Below are positions 32,684-43,071 of a stretch of DNA of 43,071 nucleotides, piece after piece. Made by a program: the position numbers and the translations under genes. How positions within the stretch are numbered: position 1 is the stretch's first letter; each line of letters starts with the position of its first letter. The stretch is from an uncultured Ectothiorhodospiraceae bacterium. Its GTDB lineage: Bacteria > Pseudomonadota > Gammaproteobacteria > JAABTG01. Location of the stretch: the NCBI GenBank assembly GCA_964461215.1, contig CAYWTP010000002.1:1-43071 (forward strand). Reading direction: 5' to 3'. The notes under the pieces are model-generated. The model was not told the origin of the DNA and did not search any database. It was given only the letters and a program-made list of their open reading frames with translations.

Positions 32684-32896
32684 GGACTCTCACGGCTGTC
32701 GTGTCAAATTCGGCGCCCGCGGGTGTCGCAGGCGCGGCGTTGTTTCCGAAGGCTTTGCACGCGGCACGCCTTGCCAGGGGGCATCGGCTACGATAGCACA
32801 AGACTCTTCGGGCGCCGTAGTGAGCCGCCGAAGACATTTATGGCATGCGCTAGGGTGGCTAGAAGGGGCACATACGTAGGATCTTTAGGCCGTGCC

Positions 32897-32992
32897 GTCC
32901 ATGTGAGGCCCGCAGGACACGCCGTGAACACGTCCGTGTGGGCTCGGTCGCAGCATCCCTGCTGCTCACGGTCCTGCAAACCTCACATGGAC
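32897..32992. other. nested stem-loop element in a long intergenic region (candidate ncRNA or regulatory structure)
   Basis: The outer stem is GTCCATGTGAGG (32897-32908) / CCTCACATGGAC (32981-32992), 12 bp. After a 3x3 internal loop comes GCAGGAC (32912-32918) / GTCCTGC (32971-32977). Then CGTGA (32923-32927) / TCACG (32966-32970). The inner hairpins are ACACG-tc-CGTGT and GCAGCA-tccc-TGCTGC. Confidence 0.35.
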
Positions 32993-33170
32993 ACCGCGTA
33001 CTTTGCTTAAGAACTAACCTATGAGAAGGGGCATGTAGCCGCGATGGGTATGACACGAGGCGAGGGCTTGGCATGCTTTCGGCTGGCGCGATTGTGGTGA
33101 ACGAGATGATTGACACCATCCACCATTCGGTAACGCTCTGAACGCCTCATGTCTCACTCCTCCTCATGAG

Positions 33171-33662
33171 TCACGAGTCACGCACCCGCCCCGTGGGGAC
33201 CCCCCGTTCGTCGATAATCTCATGCCGCTCCAGCCACTCCCGCGCCTCCGGGGCGTCGGCTTCGAACCACGCCCGGGCCGAGCCCAGGCGGAAGCTGTAG
33301 CCCCAGGCGTCCATGTCCTGGAACATACGCTCCCGGCCCATGGCCGGGAGTGAATCGGCCAGCAGGACCTGGAGGTAGCACACGGCATCCTCCTCTTCGT
33401 AGCCGCCCCCTGCGTCCGTGTGTAGCTGCGCGCGGCGAGCCGCATCCATGCACACGAAATGGCAGGCCTCATGCAGTGCCGAGTGCACGGGGGTATCCGG
33501 CCGCAGATGCAGCGCGTTGCCGACGAGGCCCGCTTCGGAGTCCCCCCAGAAGCTGCCGGGAATGGAGGCGCCCGCGGCCACCGGCACCAAGCAGAGCCCG
33601 AACGGAGCGAGCAGACGGTCGAGGATTCCGGGCTGCAGATCGGCGCACAGCAGAACGCTCAT
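33171..33662 (-). CDS. hypothetical protein with an HExxH motif (163 aa)
   Basis: Trimmed to MSVLLCADLQPG... The ATG overlaps the stop of the upstream GT41 gene (ATGA at 33659-33662). Contains PVHSALHEACHFVCM (HExxH). No family recognised. Confidence 0.55.
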   Translation of the reverse strand: MSVLLCADLQPGILDRLLAPFGLCLVPVAAGASIPGSFWGDSEAGLVGNALHLRPDTPVHSALHEACHFVCMDAARRAQLHTDAGGGYEEEDAVCYLQVLLADSLPAMGRERMFQDMDAWGYSFRLGSARAWFEADAPEAREWLERHEIIDERGVPTGRVRDS

Positions 33663-36127
33663 GGTCCCGCCTGCGGCACGTGGAATGAGGCGGGAGGCTG
33701 CCCCGCCATGTGCCGCTCCCACATCATCCGGTAGGCCTGCTCCAGGTGGCGTACCGTGCGGGCGGTGTCGAATAGCGGGTGGGACAGCCGATTCCGGGCG
33801 AGCCGGGCGCGGACGGATTCGAGCTTCTCGGGATGTGCCGCCAGGGTGAATGCCTGCTCGGCGTAAGACTCCGCAGTGTCCGTGATCAGGTCCGGCAGCC
33901 CCAGCGCGGTGAGGAGGCTCGCGGCGACGCGGCTGGGAGGCCGCTCGCCGGCACAGGTAAGAACGGGAAGCCCCGCCCACAGGGCATCGCAGGCGGTGGT
34001 CATGGCGTTGAAATCGAAGGTGTCCAGAAACAGGTTCGCTAGACTATAGCGGGCCAGATGCTCCTTCTTGCGCGGTAGCCGCTCGGCAAACACCAGGCGC
34101 TGTGGCGCCACGCCGCGGGCTGCCGCCTCGCGGCGCAGATTCGGTGCCGCCTGCCGTCCCCCAACGTTGAGCCACAGGACGCTGCGGGGAAGCCGCCGCA
34201 GCAGATCCATCCACACGCCGAACACCACCGGCTCGATCTTGTAGGCATTGTGAAAGGCGCAGAAGACGAAGCCCTCCGGGGGCAGGCCGAGTTGTCCCCG
34301 AGCGGGAGGCATCTCGTTGATGAGCTGCTGATCATCGTAGATGAAGAAGGTGCCGGGTAGGTACACCAGCTTCTCGCCCCACCGATCCTCGACGCCTACA
34401 GGTGTGGCCACGGCATCGGTGAGGCGATACTGCATGAACTCGGCCCCCATGGTGCCCGGCATCCCCAGATAGCTGACCTGTATCGGGGCGGGCTGCATGG
34501 CCAGGATCTCGGTGCGCGAGAACGTGGTATAGCCGGCGAGATCCACCAGGATCTGGATCCCGTCCGCCCTGATCTGTCGGGCCGCCTCGGCGGCGTCCAG
34601 GTGCTGGAGGTCGCGGAACACGTCGCAGCCCTTCTCGATGTCGCGGCGGTAGCGACTGCCGTCGTCGGGTTGCAGGGAGTAGCCATAGATCTCGAACTGG
34701 GTGCGATCGTGCAGAGCGTACAGTCGGCGCGTGAGCTGCCCGTTGGGGTGCTCCCGGAAATCCGGAGAGATATACCCAATCCGCAGCCAGCCCGCGTCAA
34801 AGTTGGTGTGCAAGAAGGGCAACTCTGCCTCACCCTGTACGCTGGCCTGGACTCCTGCCGAGACAGTGCGCGCCAGCAGCGCCGGCAGCTCGTGAGACAG
34901 GGGCAGGGCCAGGCCGTGGTAGACCAGGGATCGCTCGGAAATGGGACTGCCCTGGCTCGCAGCCTCGCGGATGAACCGCTCCATCGTGTTCAGGTAACGC
35001 TCGCGGTCGCCCCAGTCGCAGCGCAGCAGCCGCTCCCAACCCGCATTCAGGTAGATGGGGCGCGGGTCGGGTGAGCCGGGGCCATAGACGTCGGCGAAGC
35101 CCTGGGGGTCCAGGCCCCGGGCGGCTTCCAAGCCGGCGCGGGACTCCGCTAGGCGGCCCAGGGCAGCCAGGGCGAAGGCGCGCTGCATGGCGGCCCGCGG
35201 ATGGCCAGGGCTCAGTGCCAGCGTCCGCTCGCTTGTTTCGAGCGCTGCCGGAAAGTGGCCTAACGCGAACAGGACCTCGGCCTGCGTGCTGTGTACCTCG
35301 GCCACGTCTGGGCTGATCTCGGCCAGCCGGTGGTCGTTGGCCCGGGCCTCTCCGGAGCGGCCCAGAGCAAGCAGCACCACGCCCCGGCGAAGGAGCGCGC
35401 CGGCATGTCGTGGCTCCAGGTCCAGCACCGCGTCGAAGCCGGCCAGGGCCTCTTCCAGCCGCCCCAAGGCGGTCAGGGCCACGGCGCGGTCGAAGGCGGC
35501 ACCAAGGTTGCGCGGGTCGAGCTTCAAGGCCTCGTCGGCGGCAGCCAGGGCCGGCGCGAAGCGCTTCAGCGCCAGCAGAACCTCGGCTCGATTCAAATGA
35601 GCCGCGGCCATGCCCGGATGGGCGCCGGCCAGGCGGTCGTTGTTGGCCAGTGCCTCCTCCATCCGGCCCAGCTGGGTCAGGACCACGCCGCGATTGAGCA
35701 GCGCGTCCGCAAACCGCGAGTCGTGGGAGAGGGCCGCATCATAGTGCTCCAGGGCTTCCGCCTGACGCTGCAGGTGCTCCAGAACCACGCCGGCGTTGGT
35801 CAGTAGCTGCGGATCAGCGGGACTGAGGGCCAGAGCCTGACGGTAGCCGTCCAGGGCTTCGGCCTGGCGGCCGAGCACGGATAGCATGTTGGCGCGCGCG
35901 CTGTGGGCCTGGACGTTGGAGGGCCCGGCGTCCACTGCACGGCTGAAGGCTTCCAGGGCCTCAGGAAACTTTCCCAGCAGGTGGCGGGCGACGCCCAGCA
36001 GGAACCATGCCCGGGACTCGGCGGGGCTGATCTCGCAGCAGCGCAGCAGCAGCGGCTCCGCGACCACTGCTCTCCCGCTCTCCAGCAATGACCAGGCATA
36101 GTCGATGTCAGTAGTAGGGCGGCTCAT
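33659..36127 (-). CDS. TPR-repeat + GT41 (O-GlcNAc transferase/SPINDLY-like) glycosyltransferase
   Basis: 822 aa with about 10 TPR units in the N-terminal ~370 aa. The OGT-type catalytic region follows (IGYISPDFREHPNG, VDLAGYT, QVSYLGMPGTMGA, FVFCAFHNAYKI, FLDTFDFNAMTTACDALWAGLPVLT). Confidence 0.85.
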   Translation of the reverse strand: MSRPTTDIDYAWSLLESGRAVVAEPLLLRCCEISPAESRAWFLLGVARHLLGKFPEALEAFSRAVDAGPSNVQAHSARANMLSVLGRQAEALDGYRQALALSPADPQLLTNAGVVLEHLQRQAEALEHYDAALSHDSRFADALLNRGVVLTQLGRMEEALANNDRLAGAHPGMAAAHLNRAEVLLALKRFAPALAAADEALKLDPRNLGAAFDRAVALTALGRLEEALAGFDAVLDLEPRHAGALLRRGVVLLALGRSGEARANDHRLAEISPDVAEVHSTQAEVLFALGHFPAALETSERTLALSPGHPRAAMQRAFALAALGRLAESRAGLEAARGLDPQGFADVYGPGSPDPRPIYLNAGWERLLRCDWGDRERYLNTMERFIREAASQGSPISERSLVYHGLALPLSHELPALLARTVSAGVQASVQGEAELPFLHTNFDAGWLRIGYISPDFREHPNGQLTRRLYALHDRTQFEIYGYSLQPDDGSRYRRDIEKGCDVFRDLQHLDAAEAARQIRADGIQILVDLAGYTTFSRTEILAMQPAPIQVSYLGMPGTMGAEFMQYRLTDAVATPVGVEDRWGEKLVYLPGTFFIYDDQQLINEMPPARGQLGLPPEGFVFCAFHNAYKIEPVVFGVWMDLLRRLPRSVLWLNVGGRQAAPNLRREAAARGVAPQRLVFAERLPRKKEHLARYSLANLFLDTFDFNAMTTACDALWAGLPVLTCAGERPPSRVAASLLTALGLPDLITDTAESYAEQAFTLAAHPEKLESVRARLARNRLSHPLFDTARTVRHLEQAYRMMWERHMAGQPPASFHVPQAGP

Positions 36128-36216: not shown

Positions 36217-38367
36217 TCACCGGACGCTGAATGATGCCGGAGCCAGCCCCGCCGCGTGCCGCTCCCACATGATTCGGTAGGCGGCTTCCATGTAGCGTAC
36301 GGTGCGCTCGGTGTCGAACAGCGGATGGCTCTGCCGGCTTGTGGCGAGCCGATCACGCATCGCTCGCAACCGGTCCGGATGGGTGGCCAGATGCAACGCC
36401 TTCGCCAGATAGGCCTGGGGCGAGTCGGTGACCAGCTCCGGCAGTCCCACCGCGTGCAGCAGGCTGGCGGCAATCCTGCCGGCGGTGGCCTGCCCCAGAA
36501 AGGTCAGCAGCGGCAGGCCGGCCCATAGGGCGTCGCAGGCGGTGGTGTGGGCGTTGTAGATGAAGGTGTCGAGGAACAGATCCGCCAGCCGCTGCCGTGC
36601 CAGGTGATCGGGCAATCCCACCCGGGGGGCAAAGACCAGCCGCCGCGGGTCCACCCCTCGAACAGTCGCCTGGGCGCACAGGTTTCCGCGCGCCTGCGGG
36701 CCGGGATCGAGCAGCCATAGCACGCTGCCGGGCAGGCGCGACAGCAGATCCATCCACACGGCGAAGCCCACCGGCTCCAGCTTGTAGGCGTTGTTGAAGG
36801 CGCAGAACACGAAGCCCTCCTCCGGCAGGCCGTGGGCATGCCGCGGCGGCGTGTCCGGCGCAATGGGCTGGGCGTCGTCGTAGGTGAAATACGTGTGGGG
36901 AAGGAACACCAGCTTCTCCCGCCACCAGCGCTCGCTGCCCGCCGGGGTGACGAGGGCATCGGTGAGCCGGTACTGGACGAAGTCCGCGCCCATGGTCCCT
37001 TGCAGGCCCATGTGGTTCACCTGCACCGGCGCGGGCCGCAGTGCCAGGATCTCGCTATGGGCGAAGCTGGTATAGCCGGCCAGATCTACCAGCACCTGGA
37101 TGCCGTCGGCGTGGATGCGCTGGGCCGCCTCGACAGCCGCCAGCCCGTGCAGCTCACGGAACACGTCACAGCTCTGCTCAATATCCCGCCGCAGGCCGCT
37201 GCCGTCATCCGGGTGCAGGGAGTAACCGACGATGTCGAAGGCCGCGCGGTCGTGCAGGGCATAGACGCGGCGCATGAGTAGCGCGTTGGGATGCGCCGTG
37301 AAATTGGGCGACAGGTAGCCGACGCGCAGCCGTCGCGTCGTGCCAGACCAGCGTGTAAACGGCGCCGCCTCGCGCAACGCCGTCGCCTGCACCGCCCGGG
37401 CAACGCCTGTGGCCAAGCTCAGCCGGGTCGCAGGTGACAGGGGCAGGGAAAGCGACTGGAATACCAGTGCACGCTCTGGAATCGCGCGGCCTGCCGCTGT
37501 GGCCTCGTCCACGTAGCCATCGAGCTCGTCCACATAGCGTTCCCGATCGCTCCAGTCGCAGCGCATCTGCCGCTCCCAGGCCATCTGCAGGTAGATCAGC
37601 CGTGGATCGACGCGCTCGGTCAGCGGCGAGTGCAGTGCCGCGAAGCCCTCCGGGTCCAGTGCCCGGGCGGCCTCGAAGGCGGTCTGAGACTCATCCAATC
37701 GCCCGAGCGCGGCCAAGGCCAGACCGCGGTCAAACGCGGCCTTCAGGTGTCCCGGATGCAGGCTCAGTGCCCGGTCCGCGGCCGCCAGGGCGGGCTCGAA
37801 GCGGTGCAGCGCCAGCAGGACCTCCGCCCGGTTGAAGTGGGCATCGGGAAGGTCCGGGTGAGCGGCCGCGAGGCGGTCGTTGTTGGCCAGGGCCTCCTCC
37901 AGCCGCTCCAGGCGGATCAGGAGCACGCCGCGGTTCATCAGCGCCGGCGCATAGTCGGGCACTTGTCGCAGGGCGGACTCATAGTGCGTCAGGGCCTCGC
38001 CGTCGCTGCCCGTCTGCTCCAGGACGATCGCCAGGTTCACGTGAAGCTGCGCGTCCAGGGGGCTGCGGCGCAGACACTCACGGTAGCCTTCCACGGCCTC
38101 GGCCACCCGCCCAAGCAGGGCCAGCATGTGTGCCCGCGCGCTCAGGGCCTGCGGATGGGACGGGTCGTGGTGGATGCTCTGCTCAAAGGCCGCCAGCGCG
38201 CCCTCGAGCCTGCCCTGTTGGTGGCGGGCGGCACCCAGCAGGAACCAGGCCCAGCCGTCGCCCGGCGACGCTTCGCACCAGCATGCCAGCAAAGACTCCG
38301 CCTGTGCGGCCTCCCCGTTTTGCAGGAGGGACGAAGCGTGCCGGATGTCGTGATCAGCTTCGGGCAC
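36217..38367 (-). CDS. TPR-repeat + GT41 (OGT/SPINDLY-like) glycosyltransferase, tandem paralogue
   Basis: It has the same catalytic blocks (VGYLSPNFTAHPN, VDLAGYT, FVFCAFNNAYKL, FLDTFIYNAHTTACDALWAGLPLLT). I chose the GTG start at 38367 because MPEADHDIRHASSLLQNG then aligns residue-for-residue with MSRPTTDIDYAWSLLESG of the paralogue. An alternative ATG lies at 38499. About 3 fewer TPR units than the paralogue. Confidence 0.75.
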   Translation of the reverse strand: MPEADHDIRHASSLLQNGEAAQAESLLACWCEASPGDGWAWFLLGAARHQQGRLEGALAAFEQSIHHDPSHPQALSARAHMLALLGRVAEAVEGYRECLRRSPLDAQLHVNLAIVLEQTGSDGEALTHYESALRQVPDYAPALMNRGVLLIRLERLEEALANNDRLAAAHPDLPDAHFNRAEVLLALHRFEPALAAADRALSLHPGHLKAAFDRGLALAALGRLDESQTAFEAARALDPEGFAALHSPLTERVDPRLIYLQMAWERQMRCDWSDRERYVDELDGYVDEATAAGRAIPERALVFQSLSLPLSPATRLSLATGVARAVQATALREAAPFTRWSGTTRRLRVGYLSPNFTAHPNALLMRRVYALHDRAAFDIVGYSLHPDDGSGLRRDIEQSCDVFRELHGLAAVEAAQRIHADGIQVLVDLAGYTSFAHSEILALRPAPVQVNHMGLQGTMGADFVQYRLTDALVTPAGSERWWREKLVFLPHTYFTYDDAQPIAPDTPPRHAHGLPEEGFVFCAFNNAYKLEPVGFAVWMDLLSRLPGSVLWLLDPGPQARGNLCAQATVRGVDPRRLVFAPRVGLPDHLARQRLADLFLDTFIYNAHTTACDALWAGLPLLTFLGQATAGRIAASLLHAVGLPELVTDSPQAYLAKALHLATHPDRLRAMRDRLATSRQSHPLFDTERTVRYMEAAYRIMWERHAAGLAPASFSVR

Positions 38368-38630
38368 GGGGTGCTCTATTGACGGTTTCTCCGCCGTGAC
38401 ACGCCACAGGCAGACGCCGGCGCGGTAGGAGGCTGGGAGGGTTGCGCCGGCACAGACATGCGATCCTTCAAGCCGTTGGCGGCCACCATGGCCGGCCATA
38501 CGATGCCCAGCACACTGGAGCGAGGGAGGAGTGCCTCCAGCGCGCGAAGGGGACTTGAAGGGACGAGCCTTTCCGGTCCCCTCGCCGGCAACCGGGTCAA
38601 TAGATGATGCGGCCCGCTGCGAAGATCGGA

Positions 38631-40088
38631 TCAGTTCTTCTGGAAGGCCGCCGTACCCGCCATGTCCCCCCCGGCGCTCGCGGCGTCCAGATTGTTGATC
38701 CGGTAGCCGAGTCCGGCACGGGCGGCGCCTGCGCCGGCGAAGAAGCCGGACATGCTGGCGGAGCAGCTGGAGGCGCAAAGCGAGCCACCGACGGCGCCGC
38801 TGCCCGTGCTGACGCTGAAGGTGGGATCGGTTCCGCCCGCGCTGAAGCCGCTCAGCGATGCCCCGCTGATGCTGACATTGTCCCCGTTCGCAAACTGCCA
38901 GGCCATGTTCAGACTGCCGTTGCCAGAGTCGAAGTTGACCCCCATGTTCCCGGTAATGGTCGCGGTGCCCAGGGTGGCTGCGAGGGTGTCGTCGCCGTAG
39001 ACCGGTGCCGTATACCCCATCAGGGAGTAGGTAGCCGAGCCGTGGGGCAGCTCGGGTGTGGGGATGCCGGCCACGTAGGCCAAGCCGGCGCTGTCGTTGC
39101 TGAACGTGAAGCTGTTCGGCGAGCAGCAGGTAATTACACCGCTCTCGGTAATGGTGGGCGGGTCGACCCAGCGGCCCCAGGTGATGATGTCGTCGCCGCC
39201 GGCCCGCTGCAGCTTGGCGTCGCCGTGATCGGCCATGATGCCGCCCGTGCTCGTGAAGTCGGTGATGGCCCCGTTGGCGTCGAAGTGCGCAGTAACGCCC
39301 TCGCCGCCGTCAATCGTGTACTGACCGGAAATGCCACCTTCGACGCCGTCGGCGTAGGCATAGGTCAGGATGCCGTTGTCCGAGGACATGTCAGGGTGCT
39401 CAGTGCCGAGCTGGACAAGGGTCTGATCCCCGGCCACGAAGGTGGTCTCTTCGGACTGGGTGATGGCCTGGTTGATACCCTCCACATCGATCTCGATGCC
39501 CTGAGCCCGGAGAGTCTGAATCACCGAGTCGAGGTTCTTCACGTAACCCTGGTCGCCGATGTACAGGAGCTGGCAGCCGGCGTTGTTGCAGATCTCCACC
39601 CGGCCGTGACCTACCGTCACCGTCAAGCTGTTGCCCAGCTCGGCCAGGTACTCCGTGCCGCGGATGCCGATGGTGGCTACCGGCGTACGCACCCGGTAGG
39701 CGTTGCGGTGCGCTCTGCCGATGAGGCCGGTGATGGTGCGGAATCCCCCCCGGAGCAGGCTGAAGAAGCTGCGTTCCTTGCCGTCGGACTTGCCTTCGTA
39801 GTTGTACGAGTCGACACGGAACTGGCTGTTGGGCTGCACCGACACCTTGGCGCCGTCACTGAAGCGGAGCTGGGCCAGACCGACGGCGGTCTCGATAGTG
39901 TCGCCGGCAAGCACCGGGGCGCCCTTCGTCAGGGGCCGGCGCTGCCCATCGGCGCCAATGGCGACCACCTTGCCGAAGGCGAAGTCTACGCGGCCGGCCG
40001 CGGCAAAGCCTGTGACCGGCAACGCGGCGGCGATGAGGGCCGCCAGGGCGGCCCGCTTGTTGAGCTTGAACTTGTCGCTGGGAGGCAT
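38631..40088 (-). CDS. secreted FecR-domain protein with a TbpB/fHbp-type C-terminal 8-strand barrel (putative T11SS/Slam cargo)
   Basis: 485 aa. The signal peptide has no lipobox Cys (AALIAAALPVTGFAAAG). FecR-like blocks: GKVVAIGADGQRRPLTKGAPVLAGDTIETAVGLAQLRFSDGAKVSVQPNSQFRV and VRTPVATIGIRGTEY. C-terminal signature: ATYSLMGY..MGVNFDSGNGSLNM..ISGASLSGF..MSGFFAGAGAARAGLGYRI..GTAAFQKN. AAGGAG RBS upstream. Confidence 0.7.
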   Translation of the reverse strand: MPPSDKFKLNKRAALAALIAAALPVTGFAAAGRVDFAFGKVVAIGADGQRRPLTKGAPVLAGDTIETAVGLAQLRFSDGAKVSVQPNSQFRVDSYNYEGKSDGKERSFFSLLRGGFRTITGLIGRAHRNAYRVRTPVATIGIRGTEYLAELGNSLTVTVGHGRVEICNNAGCQLLYIGDQGYVKNLDSVIQTLRAQGIEIDVEGINQAITQSEETTFVAGDQTLVQLGTEHPDMSSDNGILTYAYADGVEGGISGQYTIDGGEGVTAHFDANGAITDFTSTGGIMADHGDAKLQRAGGDDIITWGRWVDPPTITESGVITCCSPNSFTFSNDSAGLAYVAGIPTPELPHGSATYSLMGYTAPVYGDDTLAATLGTATITGNMGVNFDSGNGSLNMAWQFANGDNVSISGASLSGFSAGGTDPTFSVSTGSGAVGGSLCASSCSASMSGFFAGAGAARAGLGYRINNLDAASAGGDMAGTAAFQKN

Positions 40089-40107
40089 GCTCGCTACTCC
40101 TTGCCGG

Positions 40108-41463
40108 TTATTGGAAGTCGCGGCGTAAGGTGACGTAGACCATGGTGCGGTTGTAGTCGCTGACCGAAACGTTGGAGTTGTTCCGCGAGTAGCTGATCTG
40201 CGGCGTCACACTCCAGCCCCGGGCCGGCACATAGCGTACCCCTGCCCTCAAATCGTAGTAGTTGTCGCGTCGAGAGACCAGAAACAGCGGCGTGGTGCCG
40301 TCGTAGTTGCGGTGCTCGGCGCTGGCCGCGCCGAAGATCAAAGTCTTGGCGTTCGCCCTGGCCTGGGCGCCCAGCCGCAGCCCGTACAGCTTGTTGCTCA
40401 GATAATCGACACCCGAGGCCAGCGCGTTCTCCTTGCCCACGTAGGCGCCTGCGTAGACCACCGGCGCCCAGTCACCACCCAGCGCCCGGGCATAGGCCGC
40501 GCCGGCCACATACCGGTTGGCGTTCCTCTGGTCGTTGGCGGGCGAGGTGTCCGTATTGGCATAGTCGAGCCGGGTGATCTGGGCGTAGGCGCTTACCTGG
40601 TTGTTGCGGTCCAGGTTGCGCTGCCATTGGCCTACCAGTGCGTACGCGTCCCGATAGGTGTTGCGATCCAGGGTAAACCGCTCTCCCTGCAGGCCTACGG
40701 TATAGGTGTCCTCACCCTGGCTCAGGGCCAGCGCGACGTCGGCGTTGACGCCGCCGGTGTCGAATCGAGAGTTGTCGCCCGCGTTCCAGCGCTGATTCAC
40801 GGCGCCGTTGGCGAGCAGGGTCAGTCGGTCGGACAGGGCGTGCTTGACGCTGGCGCCGGCCGTCACGCGGCCGAAGTTGGCGCTGCTCTTTCTGGCCGTC
40901 GCGTCGAGGGTGGCGGTGAAGGCACCAAAGGGCGTGGACAGAGCGACCGCACGCTCGGAGGTGGCGCTGTTGACGTTGCTGTCGTGCCCCAGGGTCAGGG
41001 ACAGGTAGCCCGTTACCTTGGTGGTTTCCGGCGTCTGAATTCTCTGGATGGCGTCCAAATAACGCTGGATGGTCGCCTGGGCGGCAGGTGGCGGACCTTC
41101 CTTCCTGACCGCTTCCAGCTCTCGCTTGGACCGGTCCAGCTCCCGCAACTCGAAGTAGGCCCGGCCAAGCTCGGCTCTGGCCTGGGCGTGATTGGGGTTG
41201 ACCGCCAGCACCCGCTCCAGGGCGAACACCGCCTCGGCCGGCTGGCCGCTGTCGAGGGCTGCGATGCCGAGGAGGTAGTCGTAGTCAGGATTACCCGCCC
41301 TTTCCGATTCATGGGGGGCGAGCAGCGCGTAGGCGCTCTTGGCATCACCGCTGGTCATCAGACTGTTGGCCTGGTCCAGCAGGTCGTCTGCGGAGGCCAG
41401 ACCCGGAAGAGCCACCAGCAACAGCGCTACGAGCGCCGACCGAAACAGAGCTGAGCTTCGCAT
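40108..41463 (-). CDS. Slam-like (DUF560) outer-membrane protein: TPR N-domain + beta-barrel (type XI secretion translocon candidate)
   Basis: 451 aa. Signal peptide LVALPGLASA|DD. TPR-like region: YDYLLGIAALDSGQPAEAVFALERVLAVNPNHAQARAELGRAYFEL. Then a long alternating-strand region (GYLSLTLGHDSNVNSA ...) ending MVYVTLRRDFQ. Confidence 0.75.
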   Translation of the reverse strand: MRSSALFRSALVALLLVALPGLASADDLLDQANSLMTSGDAKSAYALLAPHESERAGNPDYDYLLGIAALDSGQPAEAVFALERVLAVNPNHAQARAELGRAYFELRELDRSKRELEAVRKEGPPPAAQATIQRYLDAIQRIQTPETTKVTGYLSLTLGHDSNVNSATSERAVALSTPFGAFTATLDATARKSSANFGRVTAGASVKHALSDRLTLLANGAVNQRWNAGDNSRFDTGGVNADVALALSQGEDTYTVGLQGERFTLDRNTYRDAYALVGQWQRNLDRNNQVSAYAQITRLDYANTDTSPANDQRNANRYVAGAAYARALGGDWAPVVYAGAYVGKENALASGVDYLSNKLYGLRLGAQARANAKTLIFGAASAEHRNYDGTTPLFLVSRRDNYYDLRAGVRYVPARGWSVTPQISYSRNNSNVSVSDYNRTMVYVTLRRDFQ

Positions 41464-41704: not shown

Positions 41705-43071
41705 TTAATCCGCCGCGGCGACCTGCGCCGTGGTGTCCTGCGCCGCTCGTTCCGGCGGTGGTGTGGATGCCTGCGCGCCCGTTCCTGATCCCGTGGTGAT
41801 GGGCTCCATTCCTGACGGATTGGTGAATTGGTCGTTCAAGGTCTGGACATAGCGATCGGCGTCGGTGAGCACCCGGGTGATGCGTTTGCGCGCGATGCGG
41901 CCCCAGCCCACCGGAGCGGTGAAGAAGACCGAATGCAGCGGCCGGGTGTTCTTGCGGAAGGCATGCACCAAGGCCTCTCGGGTGTGATCGTGGTGGATGT
42001 CCTTGCCCAGCCGTCTGGCGATGCCGGTGGCGGCGATCCGGCGTACCGAGTAGTGCAGATAGCCGGCTCCTACCACCACGGCGGCCAGCAGCGCACCCAG
42101 GCCCAGGGTGCCCCAGGTGCCGATCTGCTGCAGCCACGGCGGGGCGAAGTGCAGGCCCTGCCAGTAGCCGGCGTGGATGCTCCACGCCAGCAGGGCCACC
42201 AGTATCAGGCCGAAGACGATGCCGTCACCCCACAGCACTCGGCGCTTCCAGCGTTCCTTGGCCGCCCGCAGGCGAGGAACCAGGTCATTCTCGATGTTCT
42301 TGGCGGTCTTCTCCAGCACCCCGATGATGCGATACGCGCGCTCCACCTCGACCTGCTGCATGCGGCCGTGGATCTCGGACAGATCGGCGTCACGCTTGGC
42401 CTCGAAGCGGGCGCGGCGGGTGGGATCCTCGATGGGGATCGCGGCCTCCGGACTGTAGATGCGGTAGAAGCGCCCGGCCGTGAGCCCCTTCTGCGCCAGT
42501 GCGCGCTGCCAGGCGGCAAACACCTCCTCGGGGTTGTCCTCCCGGGCGGTGGCGTCGATCTGATTCAGGATATACAGAAACTTGTTGGAATCCGGTCGCC
42601 GGATGGTGTCGGCCACCAGGTGCTGCAAGGTGTCGTGCATGGCTCCCGGCTCCGGGTGGCGCGCGTCGAAGAACACCAGCACCAAGTCCGACAAATCGAT
42701 GATATGGTCGGTGATCCGCAGCGTCGAGGTGCGCTGGGCATCGGCGTCGAAGCCCGGGGAGTCGATGATGATCTTGGCCTTGAGCTGGCTGCCGGGGCAG
42801 GTCTTGAGCTGCAGGTATGCGTCGACCCGGCGGCCTTCGCCGGATGCCACCGCTTCGATGTCGGCGCTGATCTGGTAGAAGGGAAACCGGGGATCGGCAT
42901 CCAGGGCCAGACCGGGCAGGGTCCGCGGCGTGGCGTCACTGCTGAAGCAGATCACCGTGAACTTGTCGTCCACCGCCTGGTTGCCAGTGGACTGCAAGGG
43001 CTGGCCCAGGTAATGGTTGATGAAGGTCGATTTGCCAGAGGAGAAGGTGCCAAGTACCGAGATCAGCGGCC
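41705..43071 (-). CDS. membrane-anchored dynamin-family GTPase (N-terminus lies beyond the window end)
   Basis: The reading frame stays open to the window edge. My own translation there is ..PLISVLGTFSSGKSTFINHYLGQPLQSTGNQ (P-loop GxxxxGKS). Also IIIDSPGF (G3) and LNQID (G4-like). A hydrophobic hairpin follows (GIVFGLILVALLAWSI ... TLGLGALLAAVVVGAGYL), then a low-complexity tail. Confidence 0.75.
   Translation of the reverse strand, partial: PLISVLGTFSSGKSTFINHYLGQPLQSTGNQAVDDKFTVICFSSDATPRTLPGLALDADPRFPFYQISADIEAVASGEGRRVDAYLQLKTCPGSQLKAKIIIDSPGFDADAQRTSTLRITDHIIDLSDLVLVFFDARHPEPGAMHDTLQHLVADTIRRPDSNKFLYILNQIDATAREDNPEEVFAAWQRALAQKGLTAGRFYRIYSPEAAIPIEDPTRRARFEAKRDADLSEIHGRMQQVEVERAYRIIGVLEKTAKNIENDLVPRLRAAKERWKRRVLWGDGIVFGLILVALLAWSIHAGYWQGLHFAPPWLQQIGTWGTLGLGALLAAVVVGAGYLHYSVRRIAATGIARRLGKDIHHDHTREALVHAFRKNTRPLHSVFFTAPVGWGRIARKRITRVLTDADRYVQTLNDQFTNPSGMEPITTGSGTGAQASTPPPERAAQDTTAQVAAAD

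What the first reader, a model, noticed from the sequence alone, without database searches (positions are those of the whole stretch)
38631..41463. Slam/DUF560-like translocon paired with a non-lipidated FecR-domain cargo
Seen:
- Two minus-strand genes lie 19 nt apart, with AAGGAG before the second.
- The first (451 aa) has a signal peptide, a TPR-like N-domain and a long beta-strand region ending ...VYVTLRRDFQ.
- The second (485 aa) has a Sec signal peptide without a lipobox Cys, two FecR-type sequence blocks, and a C-terminal ~130 aa that follows the TbpB/fHbp/HpuA 8-strand-barrel signature (ATYSLMGY, VNFDSGNGSL, FFAGAGAARAGLGYRI, AAFQKN).

Known: Slam (type XI secretion) proteins export neighbouring cargo that carries exactly this kind of C-terminal barrel. 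Characterised cargos are mostly metal-, heme- or host-factor-binding lipoproteins and hemophilins.

Inference: a FecR-fold effector domain on an unlipidated T11SS cargo is, as far as I know, not a characterised cargo class. FecR-domain secreted proteins are otherwise usually seen (from memory) beside CHASE2 sensors and ShlB-type transporters.
Basis: partly seen in the sequence, partly recalled or inferred. Interest (0 to 1): 0.8.

Follow-up and report, generated by a model that had tools for sequence, protein, structure and literature searches.

The report
Type 11 secretion pair, FecR-like cargo
Two adjacent genes encode an outer-membrane channel of the type 11 (Slam/DUF560) secretion family and a non-lipidated partner protein that joins a FecR-like domain to a hemophilin/TbpB-like handle-and-barrel module; the pair is conserved in hundreds of environmental Proteobacteria, which makes it a concrete cargo candidate for a T11SS branch with none described in the papers I could search.

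Summary

- **Channel gene (40108-41463, minus strand).** It passes Pfam SlipAM/DUF560 over the full profile. The model shows a TPR domain and a 14-strand barrel. It is 49% identical to Sideroxydans Slit_2212, which Grossman 2021 placed in T11SS network cluster 2; the papers I found analyse cargo only for clusters 1 and 3.
- **Partner gene (38631-40088, minus strand).** It has a Sec signal peptide with no lipobox, a FecR-like domain, a disordered linker and a C-terminal handle plus 8-strand barrel. By fold, that C-terminal half matches only T11SS cargo-type structures (TbpB, hemophilins) and NHBA. Sequence support is sub-threshold (TbpB E 0.03), and Pfam TbpB_B_D does not hit the window protein.
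- **Linkage.** The channel gene sits directly upstream in 72 of 75 cargo-anchored genome loci. The cargo gene sits directly downstream in 65 of 65 channel-anchored metagenome loci.
- **New points.**
  - OGT-like TPR-GT41 glycosyltransferase genes follow the pair in 56-67% of loci, twice here.
  - The cargo keeps an invariant Gly-Thr that aligns with the FecR self-cleavage site.
  - Its N-terminus resembles the retention module of type 1 secreted adhesins.

Secretion is inferred, not shown. I rate it a new variant of a known kind.

The parts
40108..41463 (-). T11SS-type outer-membrane protein (DUF560/SlipAM). Signal peptide about residues 1-25, periplasmic TPR domain about 25-143, 14-strand beta-barrel 149-450.
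   Evidence: Pfam SlipAM 39.4 bits (cutoff 22), profile 5-288/288, plus TPR_19. AF2 model mean pLDDT 84.1, helices 25-143, 14 strands. Homologues are named 'surface lipoprotein assembly modifier' or DUF560. The 49%-identical homologue Slit_2212 (D5CUQ3) is in SSN cluster 2 of Grossman 2021.
40089..40107 (-). 19-nt intergenic spacer with the AAGGAG ribosome-binding site for the cargo gene.
   Evidence: Read directly from the sequence.
38631..40088 (-). Predicted soluble T11SS cargo, 485 aa. Sec signal peptide about 1-30, FecR-like beta domain 32-194, disordered linker 196-235, beta 'handle' 239-341, 8-strand barrel 351-484.
   Evidence: Pfam FecR residues 63-165. AF2 model. Foldseek hits to TbpB, HphA, Hpl, NHBA and to FecR-type anti-sigma domains. 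Profile hits in the PDB are only TbpB and LbpB. Family alignment.
39653..39658 (-). Codons for Gly144-Thr145 of the cargo. This pair is invariant and aligns with the FecR Gly181-Thr182 self-cleavage site.
   Evidence: Invariant in 31/31 and 61/61 sequences. Pairwise alignment to E. coli FecR. Cleavage site taken from PMC9249621. Cleavage in this protein is not shown.
36217..38388 (-). TPR + GT41 (OGT-like) glycosyltransferase, copy a. The start codon is uncertain: the GTG at about 38352 or the ATG at 38498.
   Evidence: Pfam Glyco_transf_41 E 2e-91 plus TPRs. 48% identical to copy b. Upstream sequence read.
33659..36127 (-). TPR + GT41 (OGT-like) glycosyltransferase, copy b, 822 aa, with no signal peptide.
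   Evidence: Pfam Glyco_transf_41 E 2e-96. Human OGT E 5e-111, SPINDLY and Xanthomonas XcOGT by phmmer against the PDB. A GT41 gene follows the cargo in 37/66 and 22/33 related loci.
33171..33662 (-). Small 163-aa ORF with an HEACH (HExxH) motif. Its ATG overlaps the stop codon of GT41b (ATGA). Whether it belongs to the module is doubtful.
   Evidence: GC3 0.84 and the ATGA overlap. No Pfam family. No homologue in the 159 related loci.

Best explanation
This is a two-partner type 11 secretion module of the uncharacterised, mostly environmental DUF560 cluster 2, with an accessory glycosyltransferase.

Shown by computation.
- Both proteins carry Sec signal peptides.
- The 451-aa protein is a DUF560/SlipAM outer-membrane protein with a periplasmic TPR domain and a 14-strand barrel.
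- The 485-aa protein is a non-lipidated three-part protein: a FecR-like beta domain, a flexible linker, and a hemophilin-like handle plus 8-strand barrel.
- The two genes are almost always adjacent, in this order, across beta- and gammaproteobacterial genomes.

Inferred.
- After Sec export and signal peptidase I cleavage, the channel recognises the cargo's C-terminal handle-barrel module, as in Slam/TbpB and HrpB/hemophilin pairs.
- The channel then moves the cargo across the outer membrane.
- This leaves a soluble or surface-associated protein whose FecR-like domain acts as a binding module. Leptospira LipL45 and Lsa33 are named as surface FecR-domain proteins and offer a precedent.

Inferred from synteny only.
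- The cytoplasmic OGT-like TPR-GT41 enzymes encoded just downstream glycosylate the unfolded cargo precursor before export.
- This would parallel HMW1C modifying the HMW1 adhesin ahead of its outer-membrane translocator.
For: - Channel family: Pfam SlipAM above threshold with full coverage; TPR plus 14 strands in the AF2 model, mean pLDDT 84.1.
- Link to T11SS cluster 2: the Sideroxydans ES-1 protein P0203 is 49% identical over 94% of the query. It is ADE12440.1 / D5CUQ3 / Slit_2212, listed under cluster 2 in Grossman 2021 Table S1.
- Cargo fold: 8 strands at 351-484 with block pLDDT mostly 77-95, preceded by a handle. Of the 18 best Foldseek PDB hits, 14 are TbpB, hemophilins or NHBA and 4 are FecR-type anti-sigma domains.
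- Cargo sequence: a profile of the C-terminal domain finds only TbpB (E 0.031) and LbpB (E 0.12) among 177,635 PDB sequences at E <= 10. The alignment matches GFFAGxNAxRAG to GGFYGPKAEELG. Sub-threshold Pfam TbpB_B_D hits in 5/23 and HphA_C in 2/23 homologues.
- Linkage: channel directly upstream in 72/75 cargo-anchored genome loci, median gap about 40 nt. Cargo directly downstream in 65/65 channel-anchored metagenome loci and in 4/4 channel-first look-ups, including cultured Sideroxydans lithotrophicus ES-1.
- Export signals: Sec signal peptides with AxA sites and no lipobox in 68 homologues. Partly conserved Cys pairs at 167/172 and 438/442 fit an extracytoplasmic protein.
- Glycosyltransferase: GT41 downstream in 37/66 and 22/33 loci, with spacers as short as 12-39 nt. 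GT41b matches human OGT at E 5e-111.
Against: - No experiment shows translocation.
- Sequence similarity of the barrel to known cargo is sub-threshold, and Pfam TbpB_B_D does not hit the window protein.
- Pfam TPR_Slam is not met: 14.2 bits against a cutoff of 35.2.
- Fold search returned no solved Slam structure. The channel's best structural matches are generic TPR-barrel exopolysaccharide porins (BcsC, PelBC) and 14-strand barrels (OmpG, FadL).
- The known role of a FecR domain is periplasmic.
- The glycosylation idea has no direct support. N-X-S/T sequons are close to shuffled expectation (5.3 observed against 4.6 expected) and are similar in cargo from loci with and without GT41. One third to almost half of the loci (33-44%) lack GT41.
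Confidence: 0.68

Rival explanations
1. Tethered-display variant. The cargo is threaded through the channel C-terminus first, and the N-terminal FecR/retention-like domain folds in the periplasm and cannot pass. The protein then stays anchored in the channel with only the hemophilin-like module exposed, as the retention module of LapA/MpIBP adhesins anchors them in the type 1 secretion outer-membrane pore. In this reading the FecR-like domain is an anchor, or a periplasmic signalling end, and not the effector.
For: - NCBIfam retention_LapA (NF033682) gives sub-threshold hits to the first ~60 residues after the signal peptide in the window cargo (E 6e-7) and in 5/5 homologues tested. It gives none in E. 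coli FecR at E <= 0.01.
- Foldseek matches 5ix9, the MpIBP cell-surface anchoring domain, with TM 0.75, rmsd 1.0 A and 31% identity over 61 columns.
- A 40-residue disordered linker follows the domain.
- FecR domains normally work in the periplasm (PMC9249621).
Against: - All the hits are below the curated cutoff (about 26-32 bits against 50).
- The soluble T11SS cargos described in the papers read here (hemophilins such as HrpC) are released into the medium.
- The direction of threading in T11SS is not established.
- Nothing here shows topology.
Confidence: 0.17
2. Periplasmic partner model. The FecR-like protein is not secreted. It stays in the periplasm and binds the channel's TPR domain as a regulator or adaptor. 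The channel exports something else, for example a glycan or another protein.
For: - The channel's closest solved structures are TPR-barrel polysaccharide exporters BcsC and PelBC.
- It gives weak hits to BBP2_2 and EpsL.
- Glycosyltransferase genes lie next door.
- Canonical FecR domains are periplasmic protein-binding modules.
Against: - GT41 enzymes are soluble protein glycosyltransferases related to OGT. They are not membrane polysaccharide synthases, and no synthase or polymerase gene was seen in the module in the window or in the four annotated related loci.
- The pair persists without GT41 in 33-44% of loci.
- The barrel model has 14 strands. The PgaA-type polysaccharide porins that Grossman 2021 removed from the DUF560 network are described there as 16-stranded, against 14 for the T11SS proteins.
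- This model leaves the conserved hemophilin/TbpB-like handle-barrel module unexplained.
Confidence: 0.12
3. The adjacency is incidental and the FecR-like protein is an ordinary iron-signalling anti-sigma regulator.
For: FecR (PF04773) is a frequent neighbour of cluster 1 T11SS genes, listed with sigma-70 and TonB domains.
Against: - The protein has a cleavable signal peptide directly before the FecR domain, with no cytoplasmic anti-sigma domain and no transmembrane anchor.
- No sigma factor or TonB-dependent receptor gene was seen in the part of the window scanned or in the four annotated related loci.
- The gene order is conserved in 72/75 and 65/65 loci.
Confidence: 0.03

Closest known systems
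Type 11 secretion systems with soluble cargo (HrpB/HrpC in Xenorhabdus; Hpl, HphA and HsmA hemophilins with their DUF560 secretors)
   Same: - A single DUF560 outer-membrane protein with an N-terminal TPR domain, encoded next to a Sec-dependent, non-lipidated cargo.
- The cargo's C-terminal part is a handle plus 8-strand barrel. Foldseek aligns about 230 columns of the window cargo to HphA (8glo) and Hpl (6om5).
   Different: - The channel belongs to environmental SSN cluster 2, not animal-associated cluster 1.
- The cargo carries an extra 165-residue FecR-like domain and a disordered linker in front of the hemophilin-like module.
- Pfam TbpB_B_D and HphA_C do not recognise the barrel at threshold.
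- No TonB, TonB-dependent receptor or heme genes were seen nearby.
- OGT-like GT41 genes are linked.
Slam1/Slam2 with surface lipoproteins TbpB, LbpB, fHbp and HpuA (Neisseria)
   Same: DUF560 channel. The cargo's C-terminal barrel shares the TbpB C-lobe motif pattern. TbpB and LbpB are the only PDB sequence hits of the domain profile.
   Different: The cargo is not lipidated. It has a single handle-barrel unit and no transferrin or lactoferrin context. It comes from free-living beta- and gammaproteobacteria.
[quoted passage not shown]
   Same: The same Pfam domain and fold: 4m0n and PupR 6ovk are among the top Foldseek hits. The Gly-Thr that self-cleaves in FecR and FoxR is invariant here.
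   Different: No cytoplasmic anti-sigma domain, no membrane anchor, no partner sigma factor or transducer. The domain sits behind a signal peptide and is fused to a T11SS-type module.
HMW1A/HMW1B/HMW1C of Haemophilus influenzae (adhesin, outer-membrane translocator, cytoplasmic GT41 glycosyltransferase). This comparison is from my own knowledge, not from a paper read here.
   Same: A three-gene logic: a Sec-dependent secreted protein, a dedicated outer-membrane translocator and a cytoplasmic GT41 enzyme encoded together.
   Different: - The translocator here is DUF560, not Omp85/TpsB.
- The GT41 has a long TPR domain and is closer to eukaryotic OGT and SPINDLY than to HMW1C. The NGT model scores only 18-29 bits against a cutoff of 1000.
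- Glycosylation of this cargo is unproven, and sequons are not enriched.
Leptospira FecR-domain proteins LipL45 and Lsa33, as named in NCBIfam ('lipoprotein LipL45', 'surface adhesin Lsa33')
   Same: An extracytoplasmic FecR-domain protein without an anti-sigma part. NCBIfam Lsa33 and LipL45 models give sub-threshold hits.
   Different: LipL45 is named a lipoprotein, whereas this cargo is not lipidated. I did not examine whether those proteins have a handle-barrel module or a DUF560 partner. Scores are far below the family cutoffs.

Membership tests
T11SS outer-membrane protein (DUF560 / SlipAM, PF04575) | Matches PF04575 above the gathering score over the whole barrel domain | tested here: met
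   39.4 bits against a cutoff of 22. Residues 154-450 match profile positions 5-288 of 288. All but one of the 120 listed homologues carry PF04575 in the precomputed annotation.
T11SS outer-membrane protein (DUF560 / SlipAM, PF04575) | N-terminal periplasmic TPR domain followed by a 14-strand beta-barrel, with a Sec signal peptide | tested here: met
   The AF2 model (mean pLDDT 84.1) has helices at 25-143 and 14 strands at 149-450. Pfam TPR_19 is above threshold. The specific TPR_Slam model is not met, 14.2 bits against 35.2.
T11SS outer-membrane protein (DUF560 / SlipAM, PF04575) | Placement in a published T11SS sequence-similarity cluster | tested here: met
   The 49%-identical homologue P0203 is ADE12440.1 / D5CUQ3 / Slit_2212, which is in cluster 2 of Grossman 2021 Table S1. 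The placement is by homology to a listed member, not by re-running the network.
T11SS outer-membrane protein (DUF560 / SlipAM, PF04575) | Required for translocation of a neighbouring cargo across the outer membrane | not testable with these tools
   Needs co-expression and localisation assays.
T11SS cargo | Encoded next to its DUF560 secretor | tested here: met
   19-nt spacer here. Adjacent in 72/75 and 65/65 related loci.
T11SS cargo | Sec (or lipoprotein) signal peptide | tested here: met
   The N-terminus reads as a signal peptidase I type signal: a positively charged n-region, a hydrophobic core and an AxA site before the conserved A(A/G)RVDF. There is no Cys in the window protein and no credible lipobox in 68 homologues. 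SignalP was not available.
T11SS cargo | C-terminal 8-strand beta-barrel of the TbpB_B_D / lipoprotein C / HphA_C type, preceded by a handle or pedestal | tested here: met
   By predicted structure: 8 strands at 351-484 with block pLDDT mostly 77-95, and a handle at 239-341. Foldseek E 4e-6 to 7e-4 to TbpB, HphA, Hpl, the A. baumannii hemophilin and NHBA.
T11SS cargo | Sequence-level membership of Pfam TbpB_B_D (PF01298) or HphA_C (PF22829) | tested here: not met
   No Pfam family is reported for the window C-terminus, even with the E-value limit set to 10. Sub-threshold hits occur in 5/23 homologues (best E 1.2e-3) and 2/23 (best E 9.5e-4). Profile against the PDB: TbpB E 0.031, LbpB E 0.12. 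The domain is a divergent family that Pfam does not cover.
FecR-type anti-sigma factor (cell-surface signalling) | FecR periplasmic domain (PF04773) | tested here: met
   49.6 bits against a cutoff of 24, residues 63-165. Foldseek hits to 4m0n and PupR 6ovk.
FecR-type anti-sigma factor (cell-surface signalling) | N-terminal cytoplasmic anti-sigma domain, one transmembrane helix, and a partner ECF sigma factor and TonB-dependent transducer nearby | tested here: not met
   The signal peptide is followed directly by the FecR domain. No sigma factor or transducer gene was seen in the part of the window scanned or in the annotated related loci.
GT41 protein glycosyltransferase (OGT / SPINDLY-like) | PF13844 catalytic domain with an N-terminal TPR array | tested here: met
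   Pfam E 2e-91 and 2e-96. phmmer to human OGT E 5e-111, SPINDLY E 7e-74, XcOGT E 1e-69. Substrate and sugar were not tested.

The most novel reading that the evidence does not exclude
Cluster 2 T11SS may be a three-component glyco-display system. An OGT-like cytoplasmic GT41 would glycosylate the unfolded precursor. Sec and the DUF560 channel would then export it C-terminus first. The N-terminal FecR/retention-like domain, possibly after Gly144-Thr145 self-cleavage, would stay in the periplasm as a plug or signalling end, while the hemophilin-like module is exposed. The result would be a non-lipidated protein spanning the outer membrane through a Slam-type barrel, combining features otherwise known separately from T1SS adhesins, FecR signalling and HMW1C-type glycosylation.
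Probability: 0.1. Interest if true: 0.9.

Novelty: new variant of a known kind. Interest (0 to 1): 0.62.

Why it matters
[quoted passage not shown] The same group's bioinformatic cargo survey covered clusters 1 and 3 only.

This locus gives a specific, widely conserved cargo prediction for cluster 2. Cluster 2 has 159 network nodes, and about 79% of them are environmental. I found more than 550 related loci in each of the two collections scanned.

The finding also does four further things:
- It extends the handle-barrel targeting module to a divergent family that Pfam does not detect. That family has 2,174 representative clusters, including giant proteins with several copies of the module.
- It adds a FecR-like fold to the list of cargo N-terminal domains.
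- It links T11SS to OGT-like protein glycosyltransferases. This bears on the suggestion by Grossman and colleagues that T11SS cargo may be glycosylated.
- It is directly testable in a cultured organism, Sideroxydans lithotrophicus ES-1 (Slit_2212 and the two genes next to it).

Tried and rejected
- **Sequon test for N-glycosylation.** N-X-S/T counts in cargo are close to shuffled expectation (5.3 against 4.6) and similar in loci with and without GT41. Linker Ser+Thr content is 0.21 against 0.17. I treat this as inconclusive. The glycosylation idea therefore rests on synteny alone.
- **Word-indexed homologue search with the C-terminal profile A2.** It returned only 4 short fragments and no link to annotated TbpB-like proteins.
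- **Context of short proteins that consist mainly of the C-terminal module (P0318, P0271).** The contigs were 1-2 kb fragments and gave no context. The 200-280-aa entries in that list may simply be truncated genes.
- **Exact look-up of the window cargo in the contig index.** Not on record.
- **Fold search for a solved Slam structure.** None was returned, only generic barrels and TPR-barrel porins.
- **Upstream dynamin-like ORF 41705-42997.** It has no homologue in the 79 related genome loci, so I excluded it from the module.
- **The rest of the window.** Genes below 33.1 kb are unrelated housekeeping functions: K+ channel/TrkA, TRAP transporter, MFS, MgtE, FTR1 and TldD/PmbA.
- **RNA and regulatory scans.** Rfam found no RNA family in the window. 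The promoter and terminator scans were at or below background.
- **A first tblastn query for GT41a.** I cut it out of frame and redid it in frame.

Full report

Yes. ORFs 40108-41463 (451 aa) and 38631-40088 (485 aa) lie on the minus strand. Their codon-position GC pattern is that of genuine genes in this 66% GC window, with GC3 of 0.83 and 0.87. They are separated by 19 nt, ccggcaaggagtagcgagc, which carries AAGGAG 7 nt before the ATG.

- a signal peptide on each protein;
- the C-terminus ...VYVTLRRDFQ on the first protein;
- no N-terminal Cys in the second protein (its cysteines are at 167, 172, 321, 322, 438 and 442);
- the motifs ATYSLMGY, VNFDSGNGSL, FFAGAGAARAGLGYRI and AAFQKN.

The one correction is that Pfam sees a single FecR domain at residues 63-165, not two blocks.

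**2. The outer-membrane protein**

Pfam SlipAM/DUF560 (PF04575) matches residues 154-450 over profile positions 5-288 of 288. The score is 39.4 bits against a curated cutoff of 22. TPR_19 is also above threshold. The specific TPR_Slam model is not met, at 14.2 bits against 35.2.

An AlphaFold2 model built on 30 homologues has mean pLDDT 84.1. It shows helices at 25-143, consistent with the TPR array, followed by exactly 14 beta-strands at 149-450. A low-confidence loop sits at 168-190. This is the topology given for T11SS proteins in Grossman 2021.

Homologues at 45-51% identity are named 'surface lipoprotein assembly modifier' or 'DUF560 domain-containing protein'. One of them, P0203, is 49% identical over 94% of the query. 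It is ADE12440.1 / UniProt D5CUQ3 / Slit_2212 of Sideroxydans lithotrophicus ES-1. Table S1 of Grossman et al. 2021 (PMC8406197) lists it under sequence-similarity cluster 2. That cluster has 159 nodes, 78.6% of them environmental.

Fold search returned no solved Slam structure. The nearest matches are TPR-barrel exopolysaccharide porins (BcsC, PelBC) and 14-strand barrels (OmpG, FadL). Fold alone therefore does not separate a T11SS channel from other TPR-barrel porins. The Pfam match, the strand count and the published clustering do.

**3. The partner protein**

Only FecR (PF04773) is found by Pfam. The family is large. There are 579 hits, typically 450-490 aa and 35-42% identical over the full length, in beta- and gammaproteobacterial genomes and metagenome-assembled genomes.

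The alignment shows two conserved halves:
- a FecR-like N-terminal half, with RAQxRFxDG, FFSLLKGGxRTITGLIGR and ATIGIRGTEY;
- a C-terminal half, with DGIIGWGRW, HYVVGxPT, GxATYSLxG, NFG, a CxxxC, GFFAGxNAxRAGLxY and GAAAFxK.

The AlphaFold2 model has mean pLDDT 73.8. It gives the following parts:

| Residues | Feature |
|---|---|
| 32-194 | beta domain (FecR-like) |
| 196-235 | disordered linker |
| 239-341 | beta-rich 'handle' |
| 351-484 | eight strands, block pLDDT mostly 77-95 |

In Foldseek against the PDB, the 18 best hits (E 4e-6 to 7e-4) fall into two groups:
- the TbpB, HphA, Hpl, A. baumannii hemophilin and NHBA C-domain group of handle-barrel proteins, 14 hits (TbpB and the hemophilins are T11SS cargo types in Grossman 2025);
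- FecR-type anti-sigma periplasmic domains (4m0n/4m0h and PupR 6ovk), 4 hits.

At sequence level, a profile of the C-terminal 196 residues (alignment A2) finds only two of 177,635 PDB sequences at E <= 10. These are TbpB (E 0.031) and LbpB (E 0.12). The alignment runs through the barrel and matches GFFAGxNAxRAG to GGFYGPKAEELG.

Pfam TbpB_B_D and HphA_C give sub-threshold hits in 5 and 2 of 23 homologues, and none in the window protein. The barrel assignment is therefore well supported by predicted structure and weakly but specifically supported by sequence. I treat the domain as a divergent relative of the T11SS cargo barrel that Pfam does not cover.

A full HMMER scan of 1.84 billion representative proteins finds this module in 2,174 clusters at E <= 1e-3. 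It often occurs in 2-8 tandem copies, in proteins of up to 3,351 aa. Pfam annotates nothing over it.

**4. Lipidation**

The window protein and 68 homologues have classical signal peptidase I type signal peptides that end in AxA just before the conserved A(A/G)RVDF. The few regex 'lipobox' matches lie inside the hydrophobic core and are not credible.

Non-lipidated T11SS cargo is already known in the hemophilins, so this point is not novel in itself.

**5. Linkage**

| Anchor and source | Neighbour | Count |
|---|---|---|
| Cargo-anchored, GTDB species genomes | channel gene directly upstream, same strand | 72 of 75 |
| Cargo-anchored, GTDB species genomes | TPR-GT41 gene within 3 kb downstream | 37 of 66 |
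| Channel-anchored, metagenome contigs | FecR-type gene directly downstream | 65 of 65 |
| Channel-anchored, metagenome contigs | C-terminal module detectable (single-sequence tblastn) | 46 of 55 |
| Channel-anchored, metagenome contigs | GT41 | 22 of 33 |

Counts use only loci with enough flanking sequence. The median gap between the channel and cargo matches is about 40 nt in the genome loci.

Four channel-first look-ups with precomputed Pfam annotation show SlipAM followed by FecR every time. Three of them, including cultured Sideroxydans lithotrophicus ES-1, continue with TPR-GT41 after spacers of 12-39 nt where the gene is intact.

Flanking genes beyond this triad differ between loci. The triad is therefore the unit.

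In the window the GT41 gene is duplicated. The two copies are 48% identical. Both lack signal peptides and are close to human OGT (E 5e-111), plant SPINDLY and Xanthomonas XcOGT.

**6. How it most likely works**

Shown by computation:
- a DUF560 channel;
- a Sec-exported, non-lipidated partner with a hemophilin-like handle-barrel;
- near-obligate adjacency of the two genes.

Inferred:
- the barrel module is the recognition element for the channel;
- the partner crosses the outer membrane and ends up soluble or surface-associated;
- the FecR-like domain is a binding module. NCBIfam models named for Leptospira 'surface adhesin Lsa33' and 'lipoprotein LipL45' are the nearest named relatives, far below their cutoffs.

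Inferred from synteny only: the cytoplasmic OGT-like enzymes modify the unfolded precursor before Sec export. The known parallel is HMW1C acting on HMW1 (established knowledge, not tested here).

I looked for a glycosylation footprint and found none that is convincing. Sequons are near expectation and do not differ between loci with and without GT41. Linker Ser+Thr content is only slightly higher with GT41.

**7. Two features that could change the mechanism**

First, Gly141, Arg143, Gly144 and Thr145 are invariant in 61 of 61 sequences. Gly144-Thr145 aligns with Gly181-Thr182 of E. coli FecR. That bond undergoes non-enzymatic self-cleavage in FecR. The equivalent Gly191-Thr192 bond does so in FoxR (PMC9249621). 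The cargo may therefore self-cleave. I did not check how widely Gly-Thr is conserved across other FecR domains, so conservation within this family alone does not prove cleavage.

Second, the first ~60 residues after the signal peptide give sub-threshold hits to the NCBIfam LapA retention-module model. This holds for the window protein and for 5 of 5 homologues tested, but not for E. coli FecR. Foldseek also matches the MpIBP anchoring domain 5ix9, with TM 0.75 and 31% identity over 61 columns.

These two features motivate the tethered-display rival. In that model the N-terminal domain stays in the periplasm and only the hemophilin-like module is exposed.

**8. Comparison with what is known**

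According to Grossman 2025, T11SS channels with verified cargo all belong to cluster 1. That paper (PMC12282271) predicted cargo for clusters 1 and 3 only and defined about ten cargo architectures, none of which has a FecR domain. In its supplementary co-occurrence list for cluster 1, FecR appears together with sigma-70 and TonB domains, not among predicted cargo. The hemophilin preprint likewise treats FecR as a neighbouring regulator.

No paper in the library mentions Slit_2211 to Slit_2214. None of the T11SS papers from 2024 onward listed by the search points to a FecR-type cargo in its title or abstract.

The locus is therefore a member of the T11SS kind, with three new elements:
- a cargo architecture of FecR-like domain plus divergent handle-barrel;
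- assignment of that cargo to cluster 2;
- a linked OGT-like glycosyltransferase.

**9. Verdict**

| Item | Rating |
|---|---|
| Observation | confirmed |
| Novelty | new variant of a known kind |
| Interest | 0.62 |

It is a clear, testable lead for T11SS specialists. It opens an environmental branch of the system and a possible link to protein glycosylation. It does not overturn current understanding.

Noticed in passing
window 33659-36127 and 36217-38388 (minus strand): Two tandem paralogous TPR + GT41 (OGT/SPINDLY-like) glycosyltransferase genes, 48% identical, directly follow the cargo gene. A GT41 gene follows the pair in 37/66 genome loci and 22/33 metagenome loci. Neither protein has a signal peptide. 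The target is unknown.
   Followed up: partly
window 39653-39658 (cargo Gly144-Thr145): An invariant IRGT motif (61/61 sequences) aligns with the Gly181-Thr182 bond of E. coli FecR, which self-cleaves by N-O acyl shift. The cargo may therefore be autoproteolytically split.
   Followed up: partly
window about 39798-39987 (cargo residues 34-97): The N-terminal ~60 residues give consistent sub-threshold hits to the LapA retention-module model (NF033682) in this protein and in 5/5 homologues, but not in E. coli FecR. Foldseek also matches the MpIBP anchoring domain 5ix9.
   Followed up: partly
proteins P0248-P0393 (hits of the cargo C-terminal profile, window 38634-39221): The handle-barrel module forms a large family that Pfam does not annotate: 2,174 representative clusters. 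It includes proteins with 2-8 tandem copies of up to 3,351 aa. Some carry FecR at the N-terminus (P0248, P0255) and others do not.
   Followed up: partly
window 33171-33662 (minus strand): A 163-aa ORF with an HEACH (HExxH) motif and GC3 of 0.84. Its ATG overlaps the GT41b stop codon (ATGA). It has no Pfam family and no homologue in the 159 related loci.
   Followed up: partly
L047 11654-16276; second FecR hits also in L008, L010, L043 and L058: In several Rhodocyclales-type loci a short (244 aa) FecR-only paralogue lies 2-6 kb past the GT41 gene. Its N-terminal domain is 55% identical to the cargo's. In L047 it is followed by a histidine kinase and a sigma-54-dependent response regulator.
   Followed up: partly
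L049 4354-7165 (Ca. Desulfobacillus denitrificans); also L032, L039, L042, L056: Some genomes carry two tandem cargo genes behind one channel gene. Others carry two complete channel-cargo pairs within 10 kb, which points to paralogous expansion of the module.
   Followed up: no
L080 9078-9830 and L082 5052-5805 (Sideroxydans-type loci): A TylF-family O-methyltransferase gene sits immediately upstream of the DUF560 gene. It is intact in ES-1 and split in L082. It is absent from the window.
   Followed up: no
window 41705-42997 (minus strand): The upstream 430-aa ORF has a weak Dynamin_N hit (E 0.008). It has no counterpart in the 79 related genome loci and is separated from the channel gene by about 240 nt, so it is probably unrelated.
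   Followed up: partly
window 32684-33170: About 490 nt between the K+ channel gene and the small HExxH ORF has no convincing ORF and no Rfam match.
   Followed up: no
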